A DNA stretch of 43,350 nucleotides from Nanobdellota archaeon (GTDB taxonomy: Archaea; Nanobdellota; Nanobdellia; Pacearchaeales; GW2011-AR1): NCBI GenBank assembly GCA_017610405.1, contig JAFCCD010000004.1:1-43350 (forward strand), written 5' to 3'. A model generated the notes under the pieces. The model was not told the DNA's origin and did not search any database. It worked only from the letters and a program-made list of their open reading frames with translations. Shown here piece by piece: positions 683 to 29,653 of this stretch (the stretch's first letter is position 1; each line of letters begins with the position of its first letter). The position numbers were made by a program, and so were the translations under genes.

Positions 683-1609
683 TTACTTCTTGGTTTTCAT
701 CTCTGCTTCTTTTTGTTTTATCTTCTCTTCAAGATTAAGTTTTTCTATTAATTCTTTATAACGATTTCTAATTGTTACTTCTGTTATTCCTGCAATATCT
801 GCAACTTCTCTTTGAGTTTTCTTTTCATCATTTATCAAGGCTGCTACATAAAGTGCTGCAGCCGCAATTCCTGCAGGACCTCTACCTGAAGTTAATTCAA
901 CCTCTTCTGCTCTTTTTAAAACTTTTAGAGCATCATTTTGCGTTTTTGGAGAGAGTTTTAGAACAGAAGAAAATCTTGAAATATAATCTTTAGGAGCACT
1001 CTGTTTTACTTTTATTCCAAGTCTTCTTATTATAAATCTGTAAGTTCTTCCTATTTCTTTTCTTTCTATATCAGATGCAGTAGCCATTTCGTCAAGGGTT
1101 CTTGGTATATTATAAGATCTACAAGCAGCATAAAGGCATGCAGCTATTACAGATTCCATACTTCTTCCACGCACAAGCCCTCTTTGCAGAACAAAATTAT
1201 AAATTCTTGCAGCATCATCTTTAACAACGTTTGGAAGATTTAAGTAAGAAGCTATAACTCTTAATTCAGCCATAGCAAGCCTGAGATTTCTTTCAATGCT
1301 TGTTGAAACTCTTTCTTGCCATTTTTTTAATCTTAAGAATTTTCTGGTTTGTTTTGGCTCAAGTCTATATATATCTGAAATTTCTCCAACATTAGTTGTA
1401 AGACCCTTGTCGAATTTCTGAATACTACTAGGTGCTCCCCCTCTTCCTTTTTTCCCTCTTTTGTCAAATTTTCCAGAAAGATCTATTCCAGAGTCAACCA
1501 TTTTTTCCTCTACAACAAGACCACAATCATTACAGATAATTTCACCTAAATGAGAGTCATAAGTAAGATGTATACTGTTGCATTCAGGGCATTTCTTTAT
1601 AAATGGCAT
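683..1609 (-). CDS. tfb: Transcription initiation factor TFB (TFIIB homologue)
   Basis: 308 aa. N-terminal zinc ribbon (CPECNS...CNDCG) followed by two cyclin-like repeats with a typical TFIIB sequence (RNLRLAMAELRVIASYLNLP, GRSMESVIAACLYAACR, EVADIAGITEVTIRNRYKEL). Confidence 0.95.
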   Translation of the reverse strand: MPFIKKCPECNSIHLTYDSHLGEIICNDCGLVVEEKMVDSGIDLSGKFDKRGKKGRGGAPSSIQKFDKGLTTNVGEISDIYRLEPKQTRKFLRLKKWQERVSTSIERNLRLAMAELRVIASYLNLPNVVKDDAARIYNFVLQRGLVRGRSMESVIAACLYAACRSYNIPRTLDEMATASDIERKEIGRTYRFIIRRLGIKVKQSAPKDYISRFSSVLKLSPKTQNDALKVLKRAEEVELTSGRGPAGIAAAALYVAALINDEKKTQREVADIAGITEVTIRNRYKELIEKLNLEEKIKQKEAEMKTKK

Positions 1610-4310: not shown

Positions 4311-5213
4311 ATGCCAGCAAAAATAAAAATTACTTTTCTTGGAACTTCTGATTCTGTTCCTAGTGCTAGTAGAAACCATCCAGCAATGCTTTTAACATAT
4401 AATGGAGAAAATATCCTTTTTGATTGTGGTGAGGGGACCCAGAGACAAATTAGAAAAGCAAAGTTAAATCCCTGTAAGATAACCAGGATTTTAATTACTC
4501 ATTGGCACGCAGACCATATTTTAGGTTTGCCTGGTTTATTGAAAACCCTTGCTCTTAGTGGTTATAAGAAAACACTTTATATTTATGGACCAAAAGGAAC
4601 TAAATTATTAATTAAAAATCTTTTGAAAGTATTTGCAGTTAGAGAAGAATATCCAATAAAAATAGAAGAAGTAAATGGAAAGTTTTTTGAGACAAGTGAT
4701 TTTTACCTTGCTGCTGAAAAAATGACTCATACAGTGGATTGTAATGCATATTCTTTTGTTAAAAAAGGAAATTTAAGAATTGATAAAAAGAAATTGCAAA
4801 AGTTAAAAATTCCTTCTGGACCACATTTACAAAGATTAAAACAAGGAAAAAATATTAGTTATAAGGGGAAAAAGTATTTTTCTAAATTATTAACTTATTC
4901 TGAAGAAGAGAAGAAAATTTCTTTTGTTTTAGATACATCCTTTAATAATAAGATAAGTCCTTTTGTTAGAAATTCAGATATTTTTATTTGTGAATCAAGT
5001 TTTTCTCATGAACTTAAGGATAAGGCAAAAGAAAAGTACCATATGACTGCAAAAAAAGTGGCAGAAATAGCGAATAAATCAAAAGTAAAAAAGCTTTTTT
5101 TAATGCATATAAGTCAGAGATATTCAGGAAAATTGAAAAAGATTCTCACAGAGGCAAAGAAAATATTTAAGAATTCTTTTTTAGCAAATGATTTGGATGT
5201 TATTAATCTATAA
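4311..5213 (+). CDS. rnz: Ribonuclease Z (tRNA 3' endonuclease, metallo-beta-lactamase fold)
   Basis: 300 aa. ITFLGTSDSVPS...RNHPAMLL, DCGEGTQRQ, and the His motif ITHWHADHILGLPGLL. Length and layout are typical of short-form RNase Z. Confidence 0.9.
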   Translation: MPAKIKITFLGTSDSVPSASRNHPAMLLTYNGENILFDCGEGTQRQIRKAKLNPCKITRILITHWHADHILGLPGLLKTLALSGYKKTLYIYGPKGTKLLIKNLLKVFAVREEYPIKIEEVNGKFFETSDFYLAAEKMTHTVDCNAYSFVKKGNLRIDKKKLQKLKIPSGPHLQRLKQGKNISYKGKKYFSKLLTYSEEEKKISFVLDTSFNNKISPFVRNSDIFICESSFSHELKDKAKEKYHMTAKKVAEIANKSKVKKLFLMHISQRYSGKLKKILTEAKKIFKNSFLANDLDVINL

Positions 5214-7931: not shown

Positions 7932-9659
7932 TTACTTTTTATGTTTTTCTATTTTTTCTTTTAATCTTTTTTTATAATATTTGAAACTTTCCTTGATTTT
8001 CTTTCCTTCTTTTCTTATTTTCTTCTTTTTCTTGAATTTATATAATATAATTATTAAGATTATAAACACTAGGACAATGAGTATTCCTATAATCATAAAC
8101 AAAATCTGTTCTGTCCAGGTTAGAGGAGCAGCACCCACATTAAACTGCGAGGAAGCGCTTGCTACCAGTCCATCATAAGTTGTTCTTATATAAAGGAAAT
8201 ATTTTCCAGTGTGTGCATCTTTAGGAATCCTAAATGATTTGACAAAGCTTTTAGAAGTTTCAACTGCAATTGTTTCCTGCTCACGAAATATTTCATCTGC
8301 GTTTTTGTTTAAGATAGAATATTCTACGAGAACATCAACTTTTTTTGTACCTGCTAGATTGTAAAGGTTTATTTCTGCAGAAACTTCTTTTCCAGGAGAC
8401 ACATATAAGGATTTTTTTGGAATTTTCAGATTAACATCAAACAAAGGAGATTTTGACTCAACTTCTACTAAGACAAAAATCTCTTTTTTTAATCCTTTTG
8501 CACTAATTATTAAATTTCCCATATACAATGCAGAAGCATAACTTTCATTAGCAGTAATATCTAAAGCAACTACTTTTGTTTCTCCAACAACAAGTGTGAA
8601 ATTTGTTTCAGATATCTTTATGAAATCTTTTAATTTAGGATTTTCTATATTTACTTTTAAATTTTGTTTTCCTTCATTTATAATAATAATATTTTTAGTG
8701 ATTTTTTCTCCTTGGTTTATTTTAATTCCTATGAATTCTGGGCTTATACTTAAGGGAATAGTAGATATAATTGCTGTTCCACTGCCCCCACCACCATTGG
8801 TCTGTTGTGTGGGTGTTGAAGGAGTTTCCTCTGTAGAATAGGTTGTAAAATGAGGGACGCTGAATATTAAAGTTCCTTCAGAATAGCTTATTTCTGTGCA
8901 TACTGTGTCAGAACAGACAGAGCTGTCTCTTAATATTCTTGGATTTAAAAATGTTAAATTATAAAGGTAAAGGGTTGCTGAAGTGTTGAAATTCGGAAGA
9001 GCAGTCGAGTTTATTTCAATATAATTTGAAGAAATATTTGTATAAGAGTCAAGATCACATTCATTATCATAATTACTATTCTCTGTTAAATTAATTGCTC
9101 CACTGAATTCTATTTTTCCTTGATTAGGAATTTCGAGAATTATTTCTTCTAAATTATGCAGGTTTTCATAAGAAGAGCTGTCGAAATTTGTAGAGTTGCC
9201 CTGATTTTTGTATTTATCATAATAAACTCTGAATTTACTGGAGTCTACTATAAAAGTTATATTATCTGAAGTTATGTTCCCATTAGTGTTATTAGCGTAG
9301 ATGTAAAGAGTATGGATTCCTTCAGAAACATCAAATGTTGTATTTCCTGTTATTGTGGTATTTGCAGTGTTATCTAGATTATACCATATACTATATACGT
9401 TAGTTGCAGAATAATCAAGCTGAAGATTTTCACCCCTTATGTAGGTTTCATTTTCTGGGGAGATTATTGTTAAACTTGGGGCACTAACCATTACAGAAAC
9501 AGAAATAGCTAGGCTCTCTCCTGTCGCTTCTCCTGTAACTGCTTCTCCTGTTATTTTCTCTTTTGTGTAGTTTGAATATGCTATAAAAGCAACCAACACG
9601 ATCAAAATTAATACTGCTATAATCCCCACCACTTTCTTTTTCATATATAGAGATGTCAT
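7932..9659 (-). CDS. Envelope protein with N-terminal signal anchor, sequon-rich ectodomain and C-terminal TM plus Lys tail
   Basis: 575 aa. VVGIIAVLILIVLVAFIAY then KITGEAVTGEA. Many N-x-S/T sites. A GGGGSG linker. Beta-sandwich-like region (KINQGEKITKNIIIINEGKQNLKV). C-terminal ILFMIIGILIVLVFIILIIILYKFKKKKK. Confidence 0.75.
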   Translation of the reverse strand: MTSLYMKKKVVGIIAVLILIVLVAFIAYSNYTKEKITGEAVTGEATGESLAISVSVMVSAPSLTIISPENETYIRGENLQLDYSATNVYSIWYNLDNTANTTITGNTTFDVSEGIHTLYIYANNTNGNITSDNITFIVDSSKFRVYYDKYKNQGNSTNFDSSSYENLHNLEEIILEIPNQGKIEFSGAINLTENSNYDNECDLDSYTNISSNYIEINSTALPNFNTSATLYLYNLTFLNPRILRDSSVCSDTVCTEISYSEGTLIFSVPHFTTYSTEETPSTPTQQTNGGGGSGTAIISTIPLSISPEFIGIKINQGEKITKNIIIINEGKQNLKVNIENPKLKDFIKISETNFTLVVGETKVVALDITANESYASALYMGNLIISAKGLKKEIFVLVEVESKSPLFDVNLKIPKKSLYVSPGKEVSAEINLYNLAGTKKVDVLVEYSILNKNADEIFREQETIAVETSKSFVKSFRIPKDAHTGKYFLYIRTTYDGLVASASSQFNVGAAPLTWTEQILFMIIGILIVLVFIILIIILYKFKKKKKIRKEGKKIKESFKYYKKRLKEKIEKHKK

Positions 9660-9690: not shown

Positions 9691-10242
9691 TTATTTTTTG
9701 GAAGGAGTTTTTCTTTTTATAATGAAAAATATTATTCCCAACACAATTACTCCGAGAATTAAATATAAAAGAGGATTTACCTCTTCAGATGTTCCATACA
9801 ATTCACTTTCTTCTTCTCCAACTATTTCGACAGGAACTTTGCCTGTAATCCCCTGAGATAATTGAAGCATTCCTCCTTCTTTAGATGATACTTGTTTAAA
9901 AGAAACTAAAATTATATATTCTGTTCCTATTTCAACATCTTTTGGTATTTCAACATCTATGTATACAGGCACACTTACTCTATCAGGAGGAACATCATAT
10001 TCATTGCCACCAGCTAATGATGCTATTTGACTATTAATAGAGGTCATCATTGTAATTTGTTCTTTTTCTTCGTTCTGCAGTCTTAATGAAATTGTTGCAG
10101 ATTCTCCTGGAGCTAATTTTAAAGGATTATCATCCCAGTATGAATTCGCAACTCCTACTGATGAAATTAATGGAATAATAAACAAAGATAAAAGTGTAAC
10201 TACTATGACCTTTTTTCCCATCTTATTATATCTTTTTTTCAT
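9691..10242 (-). CDS. Small envelope protein (signal peptide, one beta-sandwich-like domain, C-terminal TM)
   Basis: 183 aa. N-terminal VIVVTLLSLFIIPLISS. C-terminal LLYLILGVIVLGIIFFIIKRKTPSKK. Confidence 0.7.
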   Translation of the reverse strand: MKKRYNKMGKKVIVVTLLSLFIIPLISSVGVANSYWDDNPLKLAPGESATISLRLQNEEKEQITMMTSINSQIASLAGGNEYDVPPDRVSVPVYIDVEIPKDVEIGTEYIILVSFKQVSSKEGGMLQLSQGITGKVPVEIVGEEESELYGTSEEVNPLLYLILGVIVLGIIFFIIKRKTPSKK

Positions 10243-10251
10243 TTTTAATTT

Positions 10252-11172
10252 TTATGTTACAATTTCAACTGTCCATGGACCATAAGCAGATGATGAATAT
10301 GATTGTGCACTGATATCTTGTGGAACTCCTTTTAGACAGAAAAATATCTGTTCTTGCCCTGATGTTGCATTGTTATAATTCAAAGAATTATTTCCTCTTT
10401 GTAATATTGCAGAAGTTACATTTGTCGAAGTTGCATTAACCATTACTGTTCCTGAACATCCTTCTGTAGCATCTTCAACTGTAAAGTTATTTGCATAAAT
10501 GTATTGGGTGGTTGTTTCCTCTCCCTGCAAATCAAGTGCTGTTACATTTATATTTAAATTCACATCGTTTCCAGAATTATTTGCTGTTATAGGGTCTTCA
10601 TCTGAGCCAGTGTCTGTATCTGTCAAGCCAATTGTAGGCCACCCTAATGATGTAGGAGACATGGTCATTGCTGTCTGTAAATTGTAAGTGAAAGTTTCAG
10701 ATTCATTATATCCTACTGCACTGTTTATATCTTCTATTGTTACGTTTATTGTCCATGCACCGTTTTCATCCCAATACCACATATCTATTGTACATGTAAA
10801 GTTCATACTATTTCCAGAATTAGGAGTAAACGTACTTATACATGATGTATTACTTCTGGTAGATTCTCCTGCTTTTGTGAAATATGCTTTAGCAGTATCT
10901 ATGTCGATATTTGCATAACCATCAGTATCTGTTACATTAAAGTAGAATGTTATTGATTTTGTGGTCCCAATAGAAGGGTCTGTTGCAGCAATTGGATCAA
11001 CTATAGTTATTGTCGGTACAGAGTTTCCAACTGTAATATTTAAAGCAGTAGTATCAGATGTTGCTTTTCCTGTAATCTTATCATAGAAATTAGAGAAGAA
11101 CCCTGCAGATGTTAAAGATACTGATAAAATTACCATCACGCTAACAATTAGTAATAATTTTCCTCTTTTCAT
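10252..11172 (-). CDS. Secreted paralogue of the membrane-proximal ectodomain of the giant protein, without anchor
   Basis: 306 aa. Signal peptide, then KITGKA. From VPTITIVDP to GPW it aligns residue by residue with the giant protein's APTIEWVQT...GAW, including identical TCTIDMWYWDENGAWTIN and LQGEETTTQYIYANNFTV. It ends 6 aa after the Trp, with no hydrophobic anchor. Confidence 0.8.
   Translation of the reverse strand: MKRGKLLLIVSVMVILSVSLTSAGFFSNFYDKITGKATSDTTALNITVGNSVPTITIVDPIAATDPSIGTTKSITFYFNVTDTDGYANIDIDTAKAYFTKAGESTRSNTSCISTFTPNSGNSMNFTCTIDMWYWDENGAWTINVTIEDINSAVGYNESETFTYNLQTAMTMSPTSLGWPTIGLTDTDTGSDEDPITANNSGNDVNLNINVTALDLQGEETTTQYIYANNFTVEDATEGCSGTVMVNATSTNVTSAILQRGNNSLNYNNATSGQEQIFFCLKGVPQDISAQSYSSSAYGPWTVEIVT
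10255..11019 (-). repeat. Copy 1 of a ~765-bp dispersed direct repeat (paralogous domain)
   Basis: Collinear with 12377-13141 at a constant offset of 2122 nt. Perfect blocks: 10486-10527 = 12608-12649 (42 nt) and 10745-10801 = 12867-12923 (57 nt). Confidence 0.85.
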
Positions 11173-11206: not shown

Positions 11207-14200
11207 TTATTCTCTTTTATTAGGTCTGTCTAATTTCTTCTTTGCTCTTGAATAAATTGTCCAAATATTTCTCTGGTCTCTTTCAAGTAATTTTGCAATT
11301 TCGCTGTATTTCATCCCTTTTTCTTTTAGATATTTAATTAATGATTCTAAAATTGTTAGGTTTTTATTCCTTAATTTAGAAAGGGGGATAGATGCCTCTG
11401 TTTTTTTGATTTTTATTGGCTCTTTCATTTTCTTTGTGGCTTTAGAATAAGATGTCCACACTGTTCTTTCATTTCTTCCTAATTTTTCCGCAATTTCTTT
11501 GTAATTCATATTCAGATTTTCTTTCATATACTTGACAAGGGATTCTAATGCTCCAGGTTTATTTGAGAAAATTGTGATTGGGATGTTGTTCTCTTTTTCT
11601 CTGATTAACTTCAAAACCTCTTTTTTTGAAGTTCTATATTCTTTTCTAATAACTCTGATTAAGAGGGTACTTGCTATTTCTTTTTCTTTTGAGTATCCTT
11701 TCTTTAATTCTGCTGAAACTAATTTTAATACCCGCATAATTTTACTATTTTCTACTGGAACCATTTTTCTCTTTTCTTTTTTAACTGATTTTATCTGGGG
11801 ATGTTGGAGTTTTTGATTAACAGCCCGCGAATAAATTGCCCATATGTTCCTTTGGTCTCTGTTGAGAAGTTCTGCTATTTCACTGAATTTCATAGACTTC
11901 TTTTTTAGATACATTATAACTGATGCGAGGGCTGTTAATCTTCTGTTTCTAAATATTGAAACAGGCAGCAAGACATCTGTTTTCTTAATTCTCATTTTTT
12001 TCTTTTCTTTTTCAGTTGCTTTGAAATATGCTGTCCAAATAGTTCTCTGATCCCTGTTGAATAATTTAGCAATTCTGGAATAATTTCTGTTTAGATTTTC
12101 TTTCGTATACTTGACTAATGCTTCAAGAACCCCGAGTTTTTCTGAAAAGATTGTAATTGGTATTTCTATTTCTTTCTTTATTTCTAATTTGTCTATCTCT
12201 TTCTTGCCTAATTTGTGTTCTTTTCTTAATTCTTTAATTAGAATTTGAAGTATTTTTTCTTTTTCTTCAGAATATCTTTCTCTTATGTCTTCTGCAAGTA
12301 TCTCTGCAGCTCTTAGTAATAAGCCTTTTTTCTTCTTCCTCTTCTTCTTTCTCCTTCCTGCATATATTACTGCAACCAGAAGAATTTTTATTTCCCAGGC
12401 ACCATACGCTGTGGATGAATATGACTGCGAAGAGATATCTTGAGGAACTCCTTTCAGACAGAAATATATCTGCTCTTGTCCTGATGTTGCATTGTTATAA
12501 TTCAGAGAATGGTTTCCTTTGTGTAGAACAACTGAAGTGACATTTGTTGAGGTTGCATTTACCATAGCTGTTCCACTGCATCCTTGGTCTGTATCACCAA
12601 CTGTGAAGTTATTTGCATAAATGTATTGGGTGGTTGTTTCCTCTCCCTGAAGATTATATGCTGTTATGTTGATATTTAGGGGTTCAGCGTTTCCAGAATT
12701 ATTGATTGTTATTGGATCGTCGTTTGAACCAGTATCTGTATCAGGAAGATTTATCTCTGGCCAGTTTATTTCTGTAGGAGATATTACCATTGCAGTTAGA
12801 ATATTATAAGTGAATGTCTCAGAGGAATTTTTAGCATATTCTGCTGAATTATCTTGAATTGTGGCATTTATTGTCCATGCACCGTTTTCATCCCAATACC
12901 ACATATCTATTGTACATGTAAAGGTAATGCTGTTTGTGCTGGCATTTCTTGGAAGACATGAATTATTGCTTCTTGTTATCTCTCCAGCCCTTTGGAAATA
13001 GGCTGCTGCTGTGCTGTTGTCAATATCATTTATTCCATTTATATCTGTTGCAGTAAAGTTGAATATTATGGATTTTGTGGTTCCAATAGAAGGATCTTGT
13101 GCAGATATTGTCTGAACCCATTCTATTGTTGGTGCGACATTTGAAACTTCTGTAACATTTAAACTCCATAAACTCCAGTTTAGATTTCCAACAGTATCAT
13201 TAATACTTACATTCACAACATAATAATATTCAACAAGTGTGGTGATGTTTGTAATAACTCCTGTTGATGGATTGATTGAAAAATTAGTTGTATCATCTAT
13301 CGAAAAACTGTCTAAACCAACCCCATCATCTGTGGCATTTATATCATAGTTTAAATTTTCATTATCATAAGAAGTTTGGTTAACAAGTGTTGTGAAATAG
13401 GGTGGGGTTGTATCATCTCCTACTGTAGTTATATTTAAACAAGCATTTTTTGTAAAATAATCTGAAAAAGAATTACTTCCAAGTAGGTCTTTTGCCCTTA
13501 CTCTTAAATCAATACATGTTTGAGCATCAACATCAGTCGTATTCCATTCAAAAGTTTGTCCTGTCCCATTTGTATGATTTCCTATTACTGTCCATATTGT
13601 GCCATTAATATTAATCCAAACTTCTGTCCAATTTATTTCATCAATATTATTTGAACTGTTATAATCAAAATTAACTCCCCTAATTTTTAAGTTTGTATTA
13701 TCTGCAGTTTGCCAGCCTGTTAGAACTGTTGAATCTGTTACTGTTAAATTAAAATTTCCTGTTTGGTCAACTGAGAAATTTCCTATTTCTACAAAATCAG
13801 AACCATTATACATTTGTAATTGCAAGTCAGGATTATTATTGTTATTGTTTAAAGAACCAGAATTATTATAAACAGAAACACTTACATTTACATTAAGACT
13901 TGTTAGATTTTTCCAATCAGATGAGAAAACATTATTATAGGTTGTCCAATTTTTTATTGCTTCTATATCAGTAGTTTCTTCGCCAACTGTAGTATCTCCT
14001 TTTTCAATAGCAAACCATCTCACATCTTCAGCATTATGAGAATTACACATATCTACCGTATCAGCTTCACAATATTTTATGTCTGCGCCAGAGGAAGTAA
14101 CTAGTCTTGCCATAGGATATTGAGGGTCTTGTCCTCCACTTTCACTGTTCTGAGTAACCATAATCATTGGGTCTGTGTATGTAGGACTGAAACTAACTCC

Positions 14201-17200
14201 GGTCCATAAACTATCGTCTATACTTTCTGTTCCTATTTGAAGACTGTCAATTTGATGGTTTGTTGGATCTATTGCAACCCAACCAACTGATTCTGCTGGC
14301 AATCCTGAATCACAATCATCTACATGTTTACCAAGGGCAGGAGCCTGGTGTGTACAAGCATACAAATCAGTTTCTGAAGTTGTAGTGCCAACTACCCATT
14401 GGTGCTGAGAAATATTTCCGCCTTGATTATAAGTTTGTGCAGTTGTAAATAAATAAGGAATGTCTGAAAAAGTTATGCTAAAACTTATATCTGCAGATTT
14501 AGCATCAACTTGGCTTGCAGCACTGATTGTACCTGCGTCAATCCAATCATATTCTTCAACTTTATCAACATCAAAAACAAAATAATGTATTGTTTCTTCA
14601 TTTGTTGTGCCAGTACAATATTGTGTAGCATTATCCATACAAAGAGTTATGTTAAAGTGAGTTGTATTTACTAAACTTATTGCTGGTACAAGTGGACTGT
14701 AGTCTTGATTACTTGGTTCATTAGAGGTGGCTGGTGTTGCTATAACAATTGGTGTAGATGTGTATGTATTATCAAAAGCTATTAGATGCCATTCAGCACC
14801 AGATACATTTAATTCTCCTTGTTCTCCAAGAATTACACCCTCTCCCATACTTATTGCTTGGCTTGTTCCTGATTCTTGGTCATTTGAAATTGTTGTGTTT
14901 AATAAAGAAGCTTCAATAGTATAATCAAAATCATCTCCATCTGGGTCATTTGAACCAGTTCCTGTTAAATTAATAATATCCCTTTGATTAACTGAGACAT
15001 TGCAATTATTTGAGCCATCACAAGTTATGTTTGTTGGAGTTGTTGGAGGATTATTTCCTAAATCAGATTCAAAAACCATCCACATAATAGGTTCATCAGC
15101 ATGAGTTTGCTCTCCATCTGTTCTTGATTCAGTCATTCTTAAGTCAACACTGCTTGTTCCTAAATTTCTAGTTCCCCCTGTTGTTGGGTCTGTTCCACTC
15201 CCTTGTTGTACTAAAGCAAAAAATAAGGCAGTGGTATATGTATTACTAAATGATTGCGTTTCCCAATTTGTATCAGTAGGGTCAGCAGTAACAGTTGGAT
15301 CAATGCCTCCTTCCATATCAGTTGCACTTGTTTGATTCATTGTTATCCAACCAATATTATAATTTGAAGAAGCTGTTAGAGGAGTAGATCCCTCTAACTC
15401 ATCTCTTTCCATTGAAAGAATAACTTGCGTAGTACTTACACTATCATATCTTGCAGCAATCCAATCACTTTCAGTGTTGTTCTGCACATTTGCAATAACA
15501 CTTGGAGCTGAGCTATATGCTGTGTGAAATGTTACTGTTCTAGCTGCAGTTCCAGAACCACCTGCACAATCATATACATTTACATCCTCAACTAATCCTG
15601 CTTGTAATAACATTCCATTATCTAATACATGACTTCCATTTTCAACAACAATATAACTTGCATTTCCAGAAACTTCATTAGCATAATCATCATAAAAGTT
15701 TATTTTAAAACTGTCTGAAGATACATTTTCAATAATTGCTGTTATTAATTCTTGTGCAGCATCAATTTCAGCACCTTCTCTTCTATATGCAACTACTACT
15801 GGAACATCATATGAACTTTTTAAATCAACAATAGTCCATCCATTTACTTCTACAACTCCTGTTTCATAAAATGAAGAAGGGTCAATAACATGATCTAATT
15901 CTATCTCTCCATTAATAATTTTTAAATCAAAGGTGTCTTGTGTTCCATTTAACCCTGTTAAGAAAACTTTATTATACTGATTATCATTTATAGTTGTAAA
16001 TTCTGCAATTAATTCATTACTGTCAATTTCATAAACTTCTATTTTTGGAGTTCCACTTGTGATTCTTGGATAAATAGTTATGTCTCTTGAAGGATCCAAA
16101 GGTATTTCAAAGGTTACACGAACATATTCATCATCTGAAATAGTTTCTGACCAGACATCATCTAATTCTTTAACTTCATCATAAATATTTGAAATAAAAT
16201 TTCTTTCAGAATTCAAATGTTCTGCTTTTGTAATCACAATTATTTCAAAAGTTTGGTTGCTTAAACGAGGGGCAACCCATTCTATGTAATCATAGATGCC
16301 GTTGTTGTCTAAGTCAGCAATATTTTCTATAGGAATATAACTATTATCTTCTACCCAATAAATTTTAACACGAGAAGGATTTTTTATGTTTAGGTTTTCG
16401 TTAAGTTCTGTGAATGCAAGAACATTTTGATAATGGGTGTCTCCTGGTCCGATGATTTTAACTCTTTTTCCCTTCTCTATATCTTCTTCAATAGCGTAAG
16501 GTGCAGGTGTTTCATATTCAACTTCATATTCTGTCGCAGTATTATCAATTTCAATTTCCTGAAGTTCTGCTCCAGCATCTATTGCTCTTCCTGTTATTTT
16601 TCCAAGATTTCTAAAGAATCTTGATAAAAATCCTTCGCCTTCTGCAGAAGAAATCATAGCTCCTGTTATACTAAAGCTTGTTTCAGAAGAAGAAGGCTCT
16701 TCTTGGGAAGGACTCGAATCTTCTTTTGGAAGAACCTCTTCTGTTTCTTCTGAATATGATTCTTTGATTTTAGTCACAAAGATGTTTGTAGCTTCTCTTG
16801 GCAATCTTATTCTTGCTGTTGCTGGTTGGTCTAAAGATATTGTTTTTGTCCATTTAACAGGCTGACCAAGAATAGCTTGTTGCTGCGTTGTGATTATTGT
16901 TGCATTTGCATATGTTATAACTCCAGGAGCTTCCTGAACAAGAAATCCTGTAAGTTCTGGTCGAATATAAATAGATGCCATGAACACAACGAAAATAATC
17001 AGGGCAGAAAAGAAAAAAACAGACAAATACTCTCCAACAAGATTTCTCTTGTGCTTTCCTAAATGTTTTTCACATTCCTTTATATAATGTTTATAATAAT
17101 CAATCCATTCTTTTAGAGTTTTGCCATCAAAATGCCTATGTGCTGTTTCAACATAAAAATCGCGGGAAACTAGACCTTTTTGATAATTATTCCAAAGCTT

Positions 17201-17299
17201 GTGCAAATACTCTTCAAAATATTTTTTTCTGTGTTCAGCAATCTCTATACTTTTTTTGAGTTCAACTATTATGGCTTTCGCTTCTCGAGTCCTTCCCAT
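11207..17299 (-). CDS. Giant (2030 aa) envelope protein with a cytoplasmic-type C-terminal tail of four HTH modules
   Basis: Uninterrupted ORF. Charged head (aa 1-90); TM YLSVFFFSALIIFVVFMASIYI (nt 16964-17029), then ELTGFLV. About 1520 aa of N/T/S-rich ectodomain with dense N-x-S/T sites, a DPDGDD motif and Ig/cadherin-like stretches. Then ILLVAVIYAG + RRKKKRKKKK, followed by a ~370-aa tail. Confidence 0.85.
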   Translation of the reverse strand: MGRTREAKAIIVELKKSIEIAEHRKKYFEEYLHKLWNNYQKGLVSRDFYVETAHRHFDGKTLKEWIDYYKHYIKECEKHLGKHKRNLVGEYLSVFFFSALIIFVVFMASIYIRPELTGFLVQEAPGVITYANATIITTQQQAILGQPVKWTKTISLDQPATARIRLPREATNIFVTKIKESYSEETEEVLPKEDSSPSQEEPSSSETSFSITGAMISSAEGEGFLSRFFRNLGKITGRAIDAGAELQEIEIDNTATEYEVEYETPAPYAIEEDIEKGKRVKIIGPGDTHYQNVLAFTELNENLNIKNPSRVKIYWVEDNSYIPIENIADLDNNGIYDYIEWVAPRLSNQTFEIIVITKAEHLNSERNFISNIYDEVKELDDVWSETISDDEYVRVTFEIPLDPSRDITIYPRITSGTPKIEVYEIDSNELIAEFTTINDNQYNKVFLTGLNGTQDTFDLKIINGEIELDHVIDPSSFYETGVVEVNGWTIVDLKSSYDVPVVVAYRREGAEIDAAQELITAIIENVSSDSFKINFYDDYANEVSGNASYIVVENGSHVLDNGMLLQAGLVEDVNVYDCAGGSGTAARTVTFHTAYSSAPSVIANVQNNTESDWIAARYDSVSTTQVILSMERDELEGSTPLTASSNYNIGWITMNQTSATDMEGGIDPTVTADPTDTNWETQSFSNTYTTALFFALVQQGSGTDPTTGGTRNLGTSSVDLRMTESRTDGEQTHADEPIMWMVFESDLGNNPPTTPTNITCDGSNNCNVSVNQRDIINLTGTGSNDPDGDDFDYTIEASLLNTTISNDQESGTSQAISMGEGVILGEQGELNVSGAEWHLIAFDNTYTSTPIVIATPATSNEPSNQDYSPLVPAISLVNTTHFNITLCMDNATQYCTGTTNEETIHYFVFDVDKVEEYDWIDAGTISAASQVDAKSADISFSITFSDIPYLFTTAQTYNQGGNISQHQWVVGTTTSETDLYACTHQAPALGKHVDDCDSGLPAESVGWVAIDPTNHQIDSLQIGTESIDDSLWTGVSFSPTYTDPMIMVTQNSESGGQDPQYPMARLVTSSGADIKYCEADTVDMCNSHNAEDVRWFAIEKGDTTVGEETTDIEAIKNWTTYNNVFSSDWKNLTSLNVNVSVSVYNNSGSLNNNNNNPDLQLQMYNGSDFVEIGNFSVDQTGNFNLTVTDSTVLTGWQTADNTNLKIRGVNFDYNSSNNIDEINWTEVWININGTIWTVIGNHTNGTGQTFEWNTTDVDAQTCIDLRVRAKDLLGSNSFSDYFTKNACLNITTVGDDTTPPYFTTLVNQTSYDNENLNYDINATDDGVGLDSFSIDDTTNFSINPSTGVITNITTLVEYYYVVNVSINDTVGNLNWSLWSLNVTEVSNVAPTIEWVQTISAQDPSIGTTKSIIFNFTATDINGINDIDNSTAAAYFQRAGEITRSNNSCLPRNASTNSITFTCTIDMWYWDENGAWTINATIQDNSAEYAKNSSETFTYNILTAMVISPTEINWPEINLPDTDTGSNDDPITINNSGNAEPLNINITAYNLQGEETTTQYIYANNFTVGDTDQGCSGTAMVNATSTNVTSVVLHKGNHSLNYNNATSGQEQIYFCLKGVPQDISSQSYSSTAYGAWEIKILLVAVIYAGRRKKKRKKKKGLLLRAAEILAEDIRERYSEEKEKILQILIKELRKEHKLGKKEIDKLEIKKEIEIPITIFSEKLGVLEALVKYTKENLNRNYSRIAKLFNRDQRTIWTAYFKATEKEKKKMRIKKTDVLLPVSIFRNRRLTALASVIMYLKKKSMKFSEIAELLNRDQRNIWAIYSRAVNQKLQHPQIKSVKKEKRKMVPVENSKIMRVLKLVSAELKKGYSKEKEIASTLLIRVIRKEYRTSKKEVLKLIREKENNIPITIFSNKPGALESLVKYMKENLNMNYKEIAEKLGRNERTVWTSYSKATKKMKEPIKIKKTEASIPLSKLRNKNLTILESLIKYLKEKGMKYSEIAKLLERDQRNIWTIYSRAKKKLDRPNKRE
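11210..12355 (-). other. C-terminal tail of the giant ORF: duplicated ~115-aa unit giving four sigma-70-region-4/LuxR-like HTH modules
   Basis: Modules at nt 12008-12163, 11807-11968, 11429-11584 and 11231-11389. Example: IPLSKLRNKNLTILESLIKYLKEKGMKYSEIAKLLERDQRNIWTIYSRAKKKL. The pattern L..LE.L..YL.E.....(Y)SEIA.LL.R..R.IW..YSRA.KKL resembles ECF sigma region 4. Confidence 0.6.
12377..13141 (-). repeat. Copy 2 of the ~765-bp dispersed direct repeat, inside the giant ORF
   Basis: See copy 1. Same strand, offset 2122 nt, with 42-nt and 57-nt perfect identity blocks. Confidence 0.85.
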
Positions 17300-17369
17300 T
17301 ACTTATTATTTATGTATTATTCCTTAAAAATATATGTATTTTTATTAAAAATACTTATTATTTATGTAT
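17300..17369. promoter_or_regulatory. 18-nt direct repeat TACTTATTATTTATGTAT x2 in the divergent giant-gene/glyS intergenic region
   Basis: Exact copies at 17300-17317 (abutting the giant gene's start codon at 17297-17299) and at 17352-17369. Confidence 0.4.
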
Positions 17370-17386
17370 AATATAAACAGCTAAAA

Positions 17387-17452
17387 GTAGTGCCTACCAA
17401 AAGATTTAAATATTTATATGTAGTGCCTAATAAGAACTTTCAAAAAGTTCTT
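17387..17452. promoter_or_regulatory. 10-nt direct repeat GTAGTGCCTA x2 plus a perfect 9-bp inverted repeat
   Basis: GTAGTGCCTA at 17387-17396 and 17420-17429 (33-bp spacing). AAGAACTTT-caa-AAAGTTCTT at 17432-17452, 27-47 nt upstream of the glyS ATG. Confidence 0.4.
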
Positions 17453-17478
17453 AGATTCAAACTAGTATTTAAAATAAA

Positions 17479-19137
17479 ATGTGTGCATTTATAGTAAAAA
17501 AAGAGATTCATGGTAAAGAGTATTATTATCTTAATGAAAATAAAAGAGTAGATGGAAAAGTAAAAACTAAAACAATTGCTTATCTTGGAAAGATAAAGAA
17601 AGATGCTGAAAAGAAGGCAAAAGAAATTCTAAAGACAGGAAAACTAGAGAAAGAAGGGAAAATTCCGGCCAAAAAAGTTAAAATAGAGCAAAAAAAGATT
17701 TCAATAGAAGAATTAACTAATTTTTGCAAGGAAAAAGGATTTGTTTTTAGGAGTTCCGATATTTATAGGGGTTTTGCTGGTTTTTGGGATTTTGGGCCTT
17801 TAGGAACTGAATTATTTAATAATATTAAGAAAGATTGGTGGAGTTATTTTGTGCAACAAAAAGAGAATATGGTAGGAATAGATGCTAGCATTATTTCTCA
17901 TCCAAGAACTTGGAAAGCCTCTGGACACATTACTGGATTTAAAGACGTCGCTGTTGTTTGTAAAAAATGTAAAAAATCTACAAAACTTGAATTAAATGAA
18001 TTTGGAAAAATAAAATGTGATTGTGGAGGAGAATTTGAAAAAACAGGTATTTTTGATATGTTATTTAAAACAAATGTTGGTGCATTAGATAAAGAAGAAG
18101 CTTATCTTAGAGGAGAAACAGCCCAAGCAATGTTTATGGATTTCAAATTAGTGCAAAAAACTTCTAGAATACATCTTCCTTTTGGTATTGCTCAGATTGG
18201 CCGTTGTTTTAGAAATGAGATTTCTCCTAGAGATTTTTTATTTAGATCAAGGGAATTCCATATTGCAGAATTTGAGTTTTTTATTCATCCTGAAGAAAAA
18301 AAATGTAATTTATTAACAAAAAAACACCTTCTGCTTAAATTAAAGTTGTTAGATGCTGAAACTCAAAAGAAAGCTAAAAAAGAATTGAAAGAGACAACTA
18401 TTAATAAAATGTTAAATGAGAAGAAATTTGATGAGTGGCAGGCATATTGGTTGGCAGAGCAAATTTTATGGTTTTATTCTTTGGGATTAAATGAAATTAA
18501 AATCAGGGAGCATATGGCTAGTGAAAGGGCATTTTATTCTTCTGCAACTTTTGATATTGATTATGATTATTCTTTTGGAAGTGAAGAAGTGGCGGGAAAT
18601 GCTAATAGGGGACAATATGATTTAACCCAACATATAAAAGAAAGTAAGGAAAAAATAGAAATTTTTGATGAGAAGACTGGAAAAAAAGTTATTCCAAAAG
18701 TTATTGAGCCAACATTTGGAATGGAAAGAATTTTTTTAGCAATATTAACAAAAGCTTATTCCCAAAACCAGAAAAATGAAGTTGTTTTAAAACTTCCTTC
18801 AAAACTTGCACCAATAAAAGTCGCTATTTTTCCAATTGTTAAGAAGCCTAGATTTGAAAAAATAGCAAAAGAAGTTTTTAATGAGTTAAAAAAAGAATGG
18901 AATGTTATTTATGATAAAAGTGGAAGTATTGGAAGGAGATATGCAAGGAATGATGAGATTGGAACTCCTTTTTGTATAACAATTGATAAGGATTCTTTGA
19001 AAAATAAAGATGTTACTGTAAGGTGGAGAGATACGACAAAACAAATTCGTATAAAAATTTCAGAATTAAAAAATATTTTAAAAAAATTAATAGAAAAAGA
19101 AATAAATTTTAATGAAGCAGGTAAGAAATTTTCTTAG
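17479..19137 (+). CDS. glyS: Glycyl-tRNA synthetase (archaeal/eukaryotic alpha2 type) with an N-terminal ~72-aa extension
   Basis: 552 aa. Core starts near KISIEELTNFCKEKGFVFRSSDIYRGFAGFWDFGPLG. Motif 2 is FRNEISPRDFLFRSREFHIAEFEFF. Anticodon-binding C-terminus has IGRRYARNDEIGTPFCITID. The only in-frame ATG is at 17479. Confidence 0.9.
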   Translation: MCAFIVKKEIHGKEYYYLNENKRVDGKVKTKTIAYLGKIKKDAEKKAKEILKTGKLEKEGKIPAKKVKIEQKKISIEELTNFCKEKGFVFRSSDIYRGFAGFWDFGPLGTELFNNIKKDWWSYFVQQKENMVGIDASIISHPRTWKASGHITGFKDVAVVCKKCKKSTKLELNEFGKIKCDCGGEFEKTGIFDMLFKTNVGALDKEEAYLRGETAQAMFMDFKLVQKTSRIHLPFGIAQIGRCFRNEISPRDFLFRSREFHIAEFEFFIHPEEKKCNLLTKKHLLLKLKLLDAETQKKAKKELKETTINKMLNEKKFDEWQAYWLAEQILWFYSLGLNEIKIREHMASERAFYSSATFDIDYDYSFGSEEVAGNANRGQYDLTQHIKESKEKIEIFDEKTGKKVIPKVIEPTFGMERIFLAILTKAYSQNQKNEVVLKLPSKLAPIKVAIFPIVKKPRFEKIAKEVFNELKKEWNVIYDKSGSIGRRYARNDEIGTPFCITIDKDSLKNKDVTVRWRDTTKQIRIKISELKNILKKLIEKEINFNEAGKKFS

Positions 19138-28984: not shown

Positions 28985-29653
28985 ATGAAAAAAATTTATA
29001 ATATTTCTCCAAAAAGAAAAAAGAATTTATTTGGTTCACTTAGTTTAACATTTATTATCATCTTGATTAATATTTTTGCTTTTATACTCTTCACGATTTT
29101 GATAGGATTGAAGGTTCCTTTAGATTATATTGCTATTAAACCTTTGAATATTACCCAAGGGAAATATCTATGGACATTTGTTACAAGCATGTTTATGCAT
29201 GGCTCATTTTTCCATATTTTTGCAAATATGTTTTCACTTTTCTTTGTTGGTTCATTAGTTGAAAAAATTCTTGGGAAGAAAAGATTTTTTTCTTTTTATA
29301 TGCTAGCTGGTCTTCTTGCAGGAGTGTTTTTTGTTTTTTTCTCCTTATTTTTCCCTGCTGATTTCAATACTTTTGCTGTGGGAGCGTCAGGAGCCTTATT
29401 TGGATTGATTGGTTTGCTAGTTCTTTTAACTCCTAATCTTCCTGTTTTTCTAATGTTTATCCCAATTCCAATAAAAATGAAATACGCTGGTCCAGGAATT
29501 TTGATTGTTTTATGGTTTATTTCAATTGCAGGAAATATTCCAATAGGGAATACAGCTCATTTTGGTGGACTTATCGCAGGGTTAGCATATGGATTATACC
29601 TAAAAAAGAAATATAAGAAAAAAACAAAATATATTAGTAAATATTTTAGTTAG
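28985..29653 (+). CDS. Rhomboid-family intramembrane serine protease
   Basis: 222 aa. HGSFFHIFANMFSLFFVG, catalytic GASGALFGLIG, and AHFGGLIAG. Confidence 0.85.
   Translation: MKKIYNISPKRKKNLFGSLSLTFIIILINIFAFILFTILIGLKVPLDYIAIKPLNITQGKYLWTFVTSMFMHGSFFHIFANMFSLFFVGSLVEKILGKKRFFSFYMLAGLLAGVFFVFFSLFFPADFNTFAVGASGALFGLIGLLVLLTPNLPVFLMFIPIPIKMKYAGPGILIVLWFISIAGNIPIGNTAHFGGLIAGLAYGLYLKKKYKKKTKYISKYFS

What the first reader, a model, noticed from the sequence alone, without database searches (positions are those of the whole stretch)
11207..17299. Giant envelope protein whose ORF continues past its membrane anchor into four sigma-70-region-4/LuxR-like HTH modules
One uninterrupted 2030-codon ORF. 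Parsed by hand, in order:
- A charged 90-aa head.
- A 22-aa TM segment (nt 16964-17029).
- About 1520 aa of N/T/S-rich ectodomain, dense in glycosylation sequons.
- ILLVAVIYAG followed by RRKKKRKKKK (nt 12326-12385).
A hydrophobic stretch followed by a basic cluster is exactly how the neighbouring surface proteins end (…IILYKFKKKKK, …FIIKRKTPSKK, …FIFARRMRK). Here, however, translation continues for about 370 aa. That tail is a duplicated ~115-aa unit giving four copies of IP.(T/S)(I/K)(F/L)....(L/G).(L/I)(E/A)(A/S)(L/V)(V/I)(K/M)Y(L/M/T)K(E/K)......(Y/F)(S/K)(E/R)IA(E/K)(L/K)(L/F).R(D/N)(Q/E)R(T/N)(I/V)W(T/A).Y(S/F)(R/K)A.(K/E)K. This reads like region 4 of ECF sigma factors or a LuxR-type HTH (compare L.Y.EGLSY.EIA..LG.S.GTVKSRL.RA.KKL). 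I do not know of a described architecture that tethers DNA-binding-type modules to a cell-surface giant. It could be a membrane-tethered regulator, possibly released by proteolysis (rhomboid and HtrA-like proteases are encoded at 28985 and 37073), coupling surface or host contact to transcription. Caveat: the second hydrophobic stretch has only about 10-14 uncharged residues, so the topology is uncertain.
Basis: partly seen in the sequence, partly recalled or inferred. Interest (0 to 1): 0.8.

Follow-up and report, generated by a model that had tools for sequence, protein, structure and literature searches.

The report
Giant archaeal surface protein with DNA-binding tail
A 2030-residue surface glycoprotein of a tiny DPANN archaeon really does end in four DNA-binding-type modules, and the same design, with a conserved candidate DNA target at its own promoter, recurs in dozens of related species, suggesting a direct link from cell surface to gene control.

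Summary
ORF 11207-17299(-) is one 2030-codon frame. The join is a mixed purine tract with no run longer than A6.

The layout is conserved in at least 80 Nanoarchaeota (Woesearchaeota/Pacearchaeota) species, two of them single-cell genomes:
- a charged head and a strong TM;
- a sequon-rich ectodomain ending in two Ig-like domains;
- a hydrophobic stretch, then a polybasic cluster;
- helical linkers and sigma-70-region-4-type HTH modules.

A profile of the tail finds about 2,000 protein clusters. So the fusion is not an artefact.

The tail passes Pfam Sigma70_r4_2 (61 bits, cutoff 25.7). It lacks region 2 and sits in an archaeon, so it is not a sigma factor. It consists of two ~190-aa units, each a linker plus two ~65-aa HTHs, not ~115-aa units.

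New findings:
- The gene heads a conserved four-gene surface-protein cluster.
- Its promoter carries two copies of an 18-nt motif, ATACATNNATAATAAGTA, 52 nt apart and flanking a TATA box. In ~1 Mb of related loci the motif is found almost only there.
- Related lineages encode the HTH module as a soluble protein at the head of surface-protein operons.

Best reading: a membrane-anchored, probably autoregulatory one-component regulator.

Weak points: the second membrane span is short, and DNA binding and proteolytic release are untested.

The parts
17352..17369 (-). Distal copy of the 18-nt motif ATACATAAATAATAAGTA, upstream of the TATA box; candidate operator
   Evidence: Exact match. There are only two matches at <=3 mismatches in the 43-kb window. 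The same position (ending at about -52) recurs in ~28 species loci.
17322..17339 (-). Degenerate middle repeat ATACATATATTTTTAAGG holding the TATA-like box (TTTTTAA, centred ~28 nt before the ATG), which implies a near-leaderless transcript
   Evidence: Sequence. The aligned intervening sequences of 29 loci all show (A)TACATA..TTTATAAG at this position. The TATA-to-TSS distance comes from general knowledge of archaeal promoters.
17300..17317 (-). Proximal copy of the 18-nt motif, directly abutting the start codon, between the TATA box and the presumed TSS; candidate repressor-type operator
   Evidence: ends at -1/0 in 31 loci; C4 and G16 are 100% invariant.
17030..17299 (-). Cytoplasmic N-terminal head (aa 1-90), basic and probably helical, conserved as MGRTRLAKA.I.EL.KRI...KK..YL..L...Y..G.IS
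   Evidence: (matched in 44 loci). No Pfam hit.
16964..17029 (-). TM1 (aa 91-112), oriented N-in/C-out
   Evidence: KD 2.68. An equivalent peak of 2.2-3.1 occurs in nearly all complete orthologues.
12386..16963 (-). Ectodomain (aa 113-1638): acidic, N/S/T-rich and sequon-enriched
   Evidence: 52 sequons against 28 expected. Across 49 loci, 3261 observed against 1438 expected.
12377..13129 (-). Membrane-proximal pair of Ig-like beta-sandwich domains (aa ~1391-1641). This is the conserved core of the ectodomain and a paralogue of the next gene.
   Evidence: AF2 pLDDT mostly >90. Foldseek finds generic tandem-Ig hits. It is 68% identical to the product of 10252-11172.
12356..12385 (-). Short hydrophobic stretch ILLVAVIYAG (aa 1639-1648); presumed stop-transfer or short TM2
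   Evidence: The span from W to the polybasic cluster is 12-19 aa, median 13, in 49 loci. AF2 gives no helix and low confidence.
12326..12355 (-). Polybasic cluster RRKKKRKKKK (aa 1649-1658); positive-inside determinant
   Evidence: Conserved in about 55 of 76 homologues.
11756..12325 (-). Tail unit 1 (aa 1659-1848): three-helix linker + HTH-A1 (aa 1713-1777) + HTH-B1 (aa 1778-1840)
11210..11755 (-). Tail unit 2 (aa 1849-2030): linker + HTH-A2 (aa 1906-1970) + HTH-B2 (aa 1971-2030)
   Evidence: It is 53% identical to unit 1.
10252..11172 (-). Second gene of the conserved cluster: a 306-aa secreted paralogue of the Ig-like pair. It ends at the last beta-strand (WTVEIVT*) with no anchor or tail.
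   Evidence: Present downstream on the same strand in 60 loci.
9691..10242 (-). Third gene: a 183-aa protein with a signal/TM at the N-terminus and a C-terminal TM + basic anchor
   Evidence: Conserved in position in 46 loci.
7932..9659 (-). Fourth gene: a 575-aa sequon-rich surface protein with a C-terminal 23-aa TM and a basic tail
   Evidence: Conserved in position in 56 loci.

Best explanation
The gene encodes a two-anchor envelope glycoprotein. Its N-terminal head and C-terminal tail are both cytoplasmic, and about 1500 aa loop outside the cell. The tail carries two tandem pairs of sigma-region-4-type helix-turn-helix modules that bind DNA. The protein therefore acts as a transmembrane one-component regulator.

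Its most likely target is its own promoter. Two 18-bp ATACATNNATAATAAGTA sites lie five helical turns apart. One is upstream of the TATA box. The other lies between the TATA box and the start of a near-leaderless mRNA for a four-gene surface-protein operon.

Occupancy of the proximal site would block RNA polymerase recruitment, giving autorepression and dosage control. The state of the ectodomain (assembly, or contact with a host or partner) would modulate this.

Shown:
- the single conserved ORF;
- the HTH identity of the tail;
- the compartment-like contrast in composition and sequons;
- the conserved operon and the promoter-specific motif;
- split versions with the HTH gene first in surface-protein operons.

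Inferred:
- the cytoplasmic location of the tail;
- DNA binding;
- the motif being the target;
- the sign of regulation;
- the nature of the signal.
For: Real protein:
- One ORF.
- The fusion is present in most of 76 homologues.
- It is present in 80 of the 80 best genomic loci, including SAGs SCGC AAA011-D5 and AM-311-I10.
- Complete orthologues are 1194-3120 aa with the same head and TM1.
- The tail profile finds 2244 cluster representatives. 48 of the top 150 are >=1000 aa with the module at the C-terminal end.

HTH identity:
- PF08281 at 61 bits against a cutoff of 25.7, and HTH_23 at 42 bits.
- AF2 pLDDT >90 for all four modules.
- Foldseek top hits are mainly sigma factors, sigma4/anti-sigma complexes and RcsB, but the E-values are weak.

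Topology:
- The polybasic cluster after the hydrophobic stretch is conserved.
- Sequons are 2.27-fold enriched in ectodomains but 1.04-fold in tails across 49 loci.
- The tail is +47 with no Cys, against -153 and 15 Cys for the ectodomain.
- Soluble homologues lack any signal peptide.

Target:
- The motif occurs only twice in the window, both times at this promoter.
- In ~1 Mb of related loci, 75 of 81 matches lie upstream of the giant gene, at ends -1/0 and about -52.
- Spacing is 51-52 nt in 27 of 29 loci, and the only C and G of the motif are invariant.
- The 4 loci with no match and 1 with only a distant match (-152) include the three divergent-subfamily members whose tails could be read (L041, L077, L080), and these have altered HTH-A recognition helices.

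Functional linkage:
- Soluble P0073 overlaps by 4 nt the start of a 2360-aa head+TM giant, and TACATAC-type repeats plus a TATA box precede it.
- P0057 and P0034 head operons of secreted proteins.
Against: - The second span is very short: 10 uncharged residues, or 12-14 counted from the conserved Trp, with KD 1.28.
- AF2 makes 'WEIKILL' the last strand of the Ig-like domain and leaves the rest unstructured at pLDDT <50. Membrane crossing is therefore not demonstrated.
- Fold search of the whole tail gave no hit below E 0.09. PDB sequence search gave only E >=0.04.
- Nothing shows that the tail, rather than another factor, binds the motif.
- Most orthologues carry one HTH pair but still have two motif copies.
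- The regulon could not be defined, because only ~1 Mb around the gene was available and the metagenome motif scan was dominated by chance singletons.
Confidence: 0.55

Rival explanations
1. The tail is cytoplasmic but is not a classical regulator. It could tether the nucleoid, or its own gene, to the envelope, in the manner of transertion or a chromosome anchor. Alternatively it could be a protein-interaction module. For example, the conserved N-terminal head could sequester it the way an anti-sigma domain holds sigma region 4.
For: - The gene sits in a conserved housekeeping neighbourhood and heads a near-universal four-gene envelope cluster, which suggests an abundant structural protein.
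- The recognition helices are almost invariant across species.
- Head + TM + ectodomain has the same layout as a membrane anti-sigma factor.
- The split version is ordered like an ECF sigma/anti-sigma operon: the HTH gene first, overlapping the head+TM giant.
- Castelle et al. noted 'sigma-70' genes in Woesearchaeota without anti-sigma factors (PMC8204110).
Against: - The head has no Pfam hit and no zinc anti-sigma motif.
- A promoter-specific, position-fixed motif argues for sequence-specific regulation rather than generic tethering.
- Head-tail contact was not tested.
Confidence: 0.2
2. The tail is a latent transcription factor released by regulated proteolysis (rhomboid, S2P or HtrA-type) after a surface signal, as in SREBP/Notch or anti-sigma cascades.
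For: - A short hydrophobic span, carrying a helix-breaking Pro in roughly half of the homologues (…VIPA/…LIP), is the kind of substrate that intramembrane proteases cut.
- A rhomboid and a trypsin-like protease are encoded in the window.
- Soluble versions of the module exist.
Against: - The protease genes are more than 11 kb away, and the rhomboid matched only 1 of 80 related loci; synteny of the trypsin-like gene was not tested.
- This protein has Tyr-Ala-Gly instead of the Pro.
- In very small cells a tethered factor can reach DNA without release, and TTRs such as ToxR and CadC act from the membrane (PMC10269533).
- There is no data on fragments.
Confidence: 0.15
3. There is no second membrane span, and the basic HTH-like tail is extracellular. 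It would bind polyanions such as extracellular DNA or host envelope polymers.
For: - The hydrophobic stretch is below usual TM thresholds.
- AF2 folds half of it into the Ig-like domain.
- From general knowledge, DPANN archaea depend on scavenged nucleotides.
Against: - A run of 8-10 consecutive Lys/Arg immediately after a conserved uncharged stretch is a classical stop-transfer/positive-inside signal.
- Tails show no sequon enrichment while ectodomains show 2.27-fold enrichment.
- Soluble paralogues have no signal peptide.
- A conserved promoter motif fits an intracellular DNA target.
Confidence: 0.08
4. The fusion is an assembly, frameshift or chimeric artefact at the purine tract.
For: The exact protein is not on record in the assembly collection. 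Reads could not be mapped.
Against: - The tract has no homopolymer longer than A6.
- The same in-frame junction, W.I(R/K)ILLVA.IP-RRKKK-linker-HTH, occurs in dozens of independent assemblies and two single-cell genomes.
Confidence: 0.01

Closest known systems
Transmembrane transcription regulators (TTRs: ToxR, CadC, TcpP; archaeal ArnR/ArnR1)
   Same: One polypeptide combines membrane span(s), an extracytoplasmic part and a cytoplasmic HTH DNA-binding domain, and acts at or from the membrane. The class is reported as widespread in bacteria and archaea (PMC10269533; ArnR in PMC6396743).
   Different: - ToxR/CadC have an N-terminal OmpR-type winged helix and a small periplasmic sensor. ArnR has an N-terminal HTH and C-terminal TMs.
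- Here the DNA-binding part is C-terminal and made of 2-4 tandem region-4-type HTHs.
- It follows a 1000-3000-aa glycosylated ectodomain and a very short span, and a second cytoplasmic domain (the head) sits at the N-terminus.
- The words DPANN, Nanoarchaeota and sigma do not occur in the main text of the TTR survey.
ECF sigma factor / membrane anti-sigma factor pairs
   Same: - Region-4-type HTH (PF08281).
- A partner with a cytoplasmic N-terminal domain, one TM and an extracytoplasmic sensor.
- Autoregulated operon logic.
- The split version has the HTH gene immediately before the head+TM giant.
   Different: - There is no region 2.
- The organism uses TBP/TFB/TFE-type transcription (TFB and TFE are in the window), so the module cannot act as a sigma subunit.
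- Here the 'sigma-like' and 'anti-sigma-like' parts are usually one polypeptide.
- The head has no detectable anti-sigma homology.
'Sigma-70' genes reported in DPANN (fam00359, prevalent in Woesearchaeota; Castelle et al. 2021, PMC8204110)
   Same: Probably the same or overlapping proteins. JGI annotates several homologues as 'sigma24 family protein'. The authors noted that no anti-sigma factors were found and that the control mechanism was unclear.
   Different: That paper treats them as sigma factors of bacterial origin. Here they turn out to be tandem region-4-only modules, mostly at the C-terminus of giant envelope proteins or leading surface-protein operons. Identity with fam00359 was not checked.
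Giant 'SPEARE' surface proteins of Nanohaloarchaeota
   Same: DPANN giant protein with a huge Ig-like-rich ectodomain, a membrane span and a functional cytosolic C-terminal domain (PMC10266531).
   Different: The cytosolic domain there is a VirB4/TraG-like ATPase and the proteins are 8,000-9,400 aa. No HTH is reported there. No ATPase domain was found here.
Archaeal region-4/LuxR-like and tandem-HTH DNA binders (Tfx, EnfR, CRISPR-repeat-binding protein 2LVS)
   Same: Small three-helix HTH modules that bind DNA in archaea. There are weak sequence or fold matches: Tfx TIGR00721 E 0.02, EnfR NF053597 E 1.7e-5 (both far below their cutoffs), 8hnp E 0.08, and 2lvs at Foldseek rank 2.
   Different: All of these are soluble. 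All scores are far below family cutoffs, so this is a resemblance rather than membership.

Membership tests
Sigma-70 family (ECF) sigma factor | Region 4 (-35-binding HTH) | tested here: met
   PF08281 Sigma70_r4_2 at 61.2 bits against cutoff 25.7 on the tail; PF04545 at 24.6 against 24.1.
Sigma-70 family (ECF) sigma factor | Region 2 (core binding / -10 recognition) and a full-length match to the sigma70-ECF model | tested here: not met
   No Sigma70_r2 hit. TIGR02937 gives 34.3 bits against cutoff 42.9 and matches only model positions 126-162 of 165.
Sigma-70 family (ECF) sigma factor | Bacterial-type RNA polymerase as partner | tested here: not met
   The window encodes archaeal TFB, TFE-alpha, ribosomal protein S8e and tRNA-splicing endonuclease. 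Related loci are Nanoarchaeota/Woesearchaeota/Pacearchaeota.
LuxR/GerE-type HTH | Match to PF00196 above the gathering score | tested here: not met
   GerE at 13.8 bits against cutoff 23.5. RcsB appears only as a weak sequence or fold hit.
Transmembrane transcription regulator (operational definition of Demey et al. 2023: at least one predicted TM plus a predicted DNA-binding domain) | Predicted TM region | tested here: met
   TM1 has KD 2.68 and is conserved in orthologues. The second span is doubtful.
Transmembrane transcription regulator (operational definition of Demey et al. 2023: at least one predicted TM plus a predicted DNA-binding domain) | Predicted DNA-binding domain in the same polypeptide | tested here: met
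   Pfam HTH families score above cutoff. The fusion is conserved.
Transmembrane transcription regulator (operational definition of Demey et al. 2023: at least one predicted TM plus a predicted DNA-binding domain) | DNA-binding domain on the cytoplasmic side, and actual regulation of transcription | not testable with these tools
   Only indirect support is available: the polybasic cluster, the sequon contrast and the promoter-specific conserved motif.
ToxR/CadC-like regulators | N-terminal OmpR-type winged-helix (Trans_reg_C) DNA-binding domain | tested here: not met
   No such Pfam hit. The DNA-binding modules are C-terminal and region-4-type.
Proteolytically released membrane-tethered factors (RIP substrates) | Dedicated site-1/site-2 protease linked to the substrate, and cleavage in or near the span | tested here: inconclusive
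   Rhomboid and trypsin-like protease genes are present. Neither is adjacent, and the rhomboid matched only 1 of 80 related loci; synteny of the trypsin-like gene was not tested. Cleavage itself is not testable here.
C-terminal sorting signals (PGF-CTERM/archaeosortase, LPXTG-like) | Motif + hydrophobic span + basic residues at the extreme C-terminus | tested here: not met
   The hydrophobic + basic element is followed by 372 more residues. No sorting-signal model appeared among the NCBIfam hits.
SPEARE-type DPANN giant proteins | Cytosolic VirB4/TraG-like ATPase after the membrane span | tested here: not met
   No ATPase domain in the Pfam or NCBIfam scans.

The most novel reading that the evidence does not exclude
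The protein is a self-contained surface-to-promoter link in an archaeon with a very small genome. The conserved cytoplasmic head plays the part of an anti-sigma domain and holds the C-terminal region-4-like HTH pairs. A change in the giant ectodomain, such as host contact or envelope assembly, frees them. They then clamp the two 18-bp sites that flank the TATA box of the protein's own leaderless operon. This both sets transcription and physically docks the gene at the membrane where its giant product is inserted. It would be an archaeal, single-polypeptide counterpart of ECF sigma/anti-sigma signalling. It would also be the main envelope-sensing system of the Woesearchaeota/Pacearchaeota.
Probability: 0.2. 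Interest if true: 0.9.

Novelty: new variant of a known kind. Interest (0 to 1): 0.72.

Why it matters
DPANN archaea of the Woesearchaeota/Pacearchaeota group are abundant and uncultured, and are thought to live attached to other cells. How they sense contact and control genes with so few regulators is an open question.

This analysis gives that question a concrete, testable form:
- a large family (about 2,000 clusters at 50% identity);
- a giant surface glycoprotein physically joined to DNA-binding modules;
- a defined 18-bp candidate target at the gene's own promoter;
- a conserved four-gene envelope operon.

It also reinterprets the 'sigma factors without anti-sigma factors' reported in DPANN. 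They appear to be region-4-only HTH modules tied to envelope proteins. A synthetic tail and a 60-bp promoter fragment would be enough for a first experiment, with no cultivation needed.

Tried and rejected
- Exact-sequence lookup of the 2030-aa protein: not on record, so there was no independent assembly of this very sequence. Homologues were used instead.
- Fold search of the 476-aa model: only generic tandem-Ig hits, so no specific function for the ectodomain.
- Fold search of the whole tail: no hit below E 0.09. I treat it as consistent with sigma4/LuxR-type folds but not as proof.
- PDB sequence search with the tail profile: only E >=0.04.
Only the paired hits led to head-type ORFs, so it is useless for defining a regulon.
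- Internal-repeat BLAST of the tail against itself returned only the self hit. Splitting the tail into halves was needed.
- Rejected: assembly artefact, true sigma factor, LuxR/GerE membership, C-terminal sorting signal, SPEARE-type ATPase protein. Reasons are in the membership table.
- Literature searches found no description of this architecture. The library is limited to open-access papers and preprints.

Full report

The minus-strand ORF 11207..17299 is a single 2030-codon frame. It is parsed as follows.

| Segment | Residues | Properties |
|---|---|---|
| Head | 1-90 | Basic, net +6 |
| TM1 | ~91-112 | Strongest hydrophobic peak, Kyte-Doolittle 2.68 |
| Ectodomain | 113-1638 | 29.7% N+S+T, net charge -153, 15 Cys, 52 sequons against 28 expected from shuffling |
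| Hydrophobic stretch | 1639-1648 | ILLVAVIYAG |
| Polybasic cluster | 1649-1658 | RRKKKRKKKK |
| Tail | 1659-2030 | 372 aa, net +47, no Cys, 2 sequons against 2 expected |

- The DNA at the junction is a mixed purine tract (AGG AGA AAG AAG AAG AGG AAG AAG AAA AAA) whose longest homopolymer is A6. It is not a homopolymer.
- The other two frames around the junction are full of stop codons.
- The window is archaeal. It encodes TFB, TFE-alpha, ribosomal protein S8e and tRNA-splicing endonuclease.

**2. Anatomy of the tail**

- The tail passes Pfam Sigma70_r4_2 (61.2 bits, cutoff 25.7) and HTH_23.
- GerE/LuxR is below its cutoff. No sigma region 2 is found. The sigma70-ECF model is matched only over its last ~37 positions and below its cutoff.
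- The tail consists of two ~190-aa units that are 53% identical (E 5e-61). Each unit is a ~54-aa helical linker followed by two ~65-aa HTH modules.
- The modules start at aa 1713, 1778, 1906 and 1971. Four copies is right. '~115 aa' is not.
- AF2 models, built on alignments of homologues, show each module as a short strand plus three helices at pLDDT >90. The linkers are helices of lower confidence.
- Foldseek with the whole tail gives only weak E-values (>=0.09). The hits are mainly sigma factors, sigma4/anti-sigma complexes, RcsB and an archaeal tandem-HTH CRISPR-repeat-binding protein.
- PDB sequence search is similarly weak.
- The profile evidence is therefore the solid part. The fold evidence is merely consistent with it.

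**3. Is the fusion an artefact? No.**

- A search with the junction plus tail found 76 homologues in Pacearchaeota, Woesearchaeota and Nanoarchaeota assemblies.
- About 55 of them carry the same in-frame junction: YS(S/T)..G(A/S)W(T/E)I(R/K), then 8-14 uncharged residues, a polybasic run, the linker and the HTHs.
- A scan of one genome per species found at least 357 encoding stretches.
- In the best 80 loci the match nearly always spans the Ig-like module and the HTH region in one frame. Two of these loci are single-cell genomes.
- Most complete ORFs in these loci are 1194-3120 aa. They begin with the same conserved head (MGRTRLAKA.I.EL.KRI...KK..YL..L...Y..G.IS) and nearly all show a strong TM1.
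- Two loci are interrupted. In L035 the break lies within the ectodomain, upstream of the junction; in L010 its position was not resolved.
- A profile of the tail against 1.84 billion cluster representatives gave 2244 hits (2050 at E <=1e-10).
- 48 of the best 150 are >=1000 aa, up to 5919 aa, with the module at the C-terminal end.
- The giant with its HTH tail is thus the normal form of a large family that has no informative annotation.

**4. Topology**

The weak point is the second span.

Against a membrane crossing:
- From the invariant Trp to the basic run there are only 12-19 residues, median 13.
- The KD score is 1.28.
- AF2 folds WEIKILL as the last strand of the second Ig-like domain and leaves VAVIYAG-RRKKK... 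at pLDDT <50.
- The tail-less paralogue next door ends exactly after that strand (WTVEIVT*).

For a cytoplasmic tail:
- The strictly uncharged stretch and the 8-10-residue Lys/Arg run are conserved throughout the family.
- Some members have longer hydrophobic segments (P0042, P0036, P0051, P0072).
- Across 49 loci, sequons are 2.27-fold enriched over composition in ectodomains (3261 against 1438). In tails they are not enriched (62 against 59.8).
- The composition switches from very acidic to very basic at the junction.
- Soluble homologues without any signal peptide exist.

From general knowledge, very short hydrophobic segments flanked by basic residues can act as stop-transfer anchors. I put the cytoplasmic location at about 0.75.

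**5. Context**

- The three genes downstream are separated by 34, 9 and 31 nt.
- They encode a 306-aa secreted paralogue of the Ig-like pair (68% identity), a 183-aa protein and a 575-aa protein. The last two have C-terminal anchors.
- These genes follow the giant gene on the same strand in 60, 46 and 56 related loci. That is nearly every locus with enough downstream DNA.
- GlyRS lies divergently upstream in 24 loci.
- The AF2 model and Foldseek identify the membrane-proximal module only as a generic tandem Ig-like pair.
- The rhomboid (28985) and trypsin-like protease (37073) are real. They are more than 11 kb from the gene. The rhomboid matched only 1 of 80 related loci; synteny of the trypsin-like gene was not tested.

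**6. A conserved, gene-specific cis element**

- The 21-nt direct repeat upstream of the ATG contains an 18-nt motif, ATACATAAATAATAAGTA.
- With up to 3 mismatches the motif occurs only twice in the 43-kb window. One copy is at 17300-17317, abutting the ATG. The other is at 17352-17369.
- I aligned 42 upstream regions from different species, whose proteins are only 35-66% identical. 34 have two or more copies, 4 have one and 4 have none.
- In ~1 Mb of related loci, 75 of 81 matches lie just upstream of the giant gene. They sit at two fixed positions, ending at -1/0 and at about -52.
- Spacing is 52 or 51 nt in 27 of 29 loci. The only C and the only G of the motif are 100% invariant.
- Between the copies lies a degenerate third repeat that holds a TTTATAAG box. 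Its centre is ~28 nt before the ATG.
- By the usual archaeal TATA-to-start distance (general knowledge), this implies a near-leaderless mRNA.
- One operator-like site therefore sits upstream of the TATA box. The other sits between the TATA box and the start. They are five helical turns apart.
- The 4 loci with no match and the 1 with only a distant match include the three divergent-subfamily members whose tails could be read (L041, L077, L080). Their HTH-A recognition helix is altered (W[IN]NY or ALNY instead of WT[AS]Y). This is suggestive co-variation, but it rests on very few independent events.

**7. Split versions**

- In a Woesearchaeota contig, the soluble two-HTH protein P0073 is encoded with a 4-nt overlap immediately upstream of a 2360-aa protein.
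- That protein has a head-like N-terminus, a TM and Laminin_G_3 domains, and no region-4 hit on record.
- TACATAC-type repeats and a TATA box precede the HTH gene.
- Soluble four-HTH proteins P0057 and P0034 likewise head operons of secreted, sequon-rich proteins (Big_7, Cadherin-like, CARDB).
- Fusion in most lineages and adjacency in others is classical evidence of a functional link between the HTH module and the envelope-protein operon.

**8. Mechanism**

- The best-supported reading is a transmembrane one-component regulator. Its cytoplasmic tandem HTH pairs bind the motif pair at its own promoter.
- The proximal site is placed where archaeal repressors block polymerase recruitment (general knowledge). 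Autorepression tuned by the state of the ectodomain is therefore the simplest model.
- Each 18-bp site has two conserved blocks (TACA and TAAGTA) about one helical turn apart. That would fit one HTH-A/HTH-B pair per site. This is an inference.
- Proteolytic release, a structural DNA-membrane tether and an anti-sigma-like role for the head are not excluded. They are listed as rivals or as the novel case.

**9. What is known**

- Membrane-bound DNA-binding regulators are an established class in bacteria and archaea (PMC10269533; ArnR in PMC6396743).
- DPANN giants with cytosolic C-terminal domains are known from nanohaloarchaea (PMC10266531).
- 'Sigma-70' genes without anti-sigma factors were noted in Woesearchaeota (PMC8204110).
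- In the searchable literature I found no description of region-4-type HTH arrays on giant envelope proteins, of the conserved four-gene cluster, or of the promoter motif.
- I therefore rate it a new variant of a known kind, with high interest. It yields an immediately testable protein-DNA pair in an uncultured clade.

Noticed in passing
window 17431-17453: A perfect 10-nt inverted repeat, TAAGAACTTT-caa-AAAGTTCTTA, lies in the divergent intergenic region about 25 nt upstream of the glycyl-tRNA synthetase start (17479). It could be an operator or a terminator-like hairpin.
   Followed up: no
window 17479-19137: The glycyl-tRNA synthetase carries a Lys-rich N-terminal region of roughly 200 aa before the first Pfam-matched catalytic stretch, which starts at residue 205. 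The first ~100 residues look like an appended basic domain.
   Followed up: no
L001, L005, L014, L075 (record titles): Four loci that carry this archaeal cluster come from MAGs labelled Bacillota, Patescibacteria or 'bacterium'. L001 ('Bacillota') is the closest relative of the window, with GlyRS 80% and the 306-aa protein 78% identical. These labels look like mis-binning or mislabelling.
   Followed up: partly
L041 and L077, ~90 nt upstream of the giant ORF: In the divergent subfamily that lacks the 18-nt motif, the upstream region instead holds a GC-rich inverted repeat, GGTTGTCTCTGCACACC...GAGACAACC, conserved between the two loci. It may be a structured RNA or a different operator.
   Followed up: no
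window 683-1609: The TFB gene gives a weak Sigma70_r4 hit in its second cyclin repeat (E 4e-4, below cutoff). TFB, an RNase Z-like metallo-beta-lactamase-fold gene (4311-5213) and S8e recur downstream of the giant cluster in 17-24 loci. The whole neighbourhood is therefore syntenic.
   Followed up: partly
L021 and L055 (same contig JAHIWS010000011.1): Two giant+HTH genes lie about 19 kb apart on one contig (3120 aa, cut at the locus edge, and 1634 aa). Some genomes therefore carry more than one copy of the system.
   Followed up: no
P0012, P0069, P0025, P0043, P0072: 'Mini' members of 440-555 aa consist of a signal peptide, the Ig-like pair, the hydrophobic and basic junction, the linker and two HTHs. 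Their N-termini resemble the 306-aa tail-less neighbour in the window. That neighbour may be a derivative that lost its tail.
   Followed up: partly
P0065 and P0064: Two homologues have odd N-terminal parts: P0065 a DUF523-like part and P0064 an adenylate-kinase-like part. These may be chimeric gene calls or real fusions.
   Followed up: no
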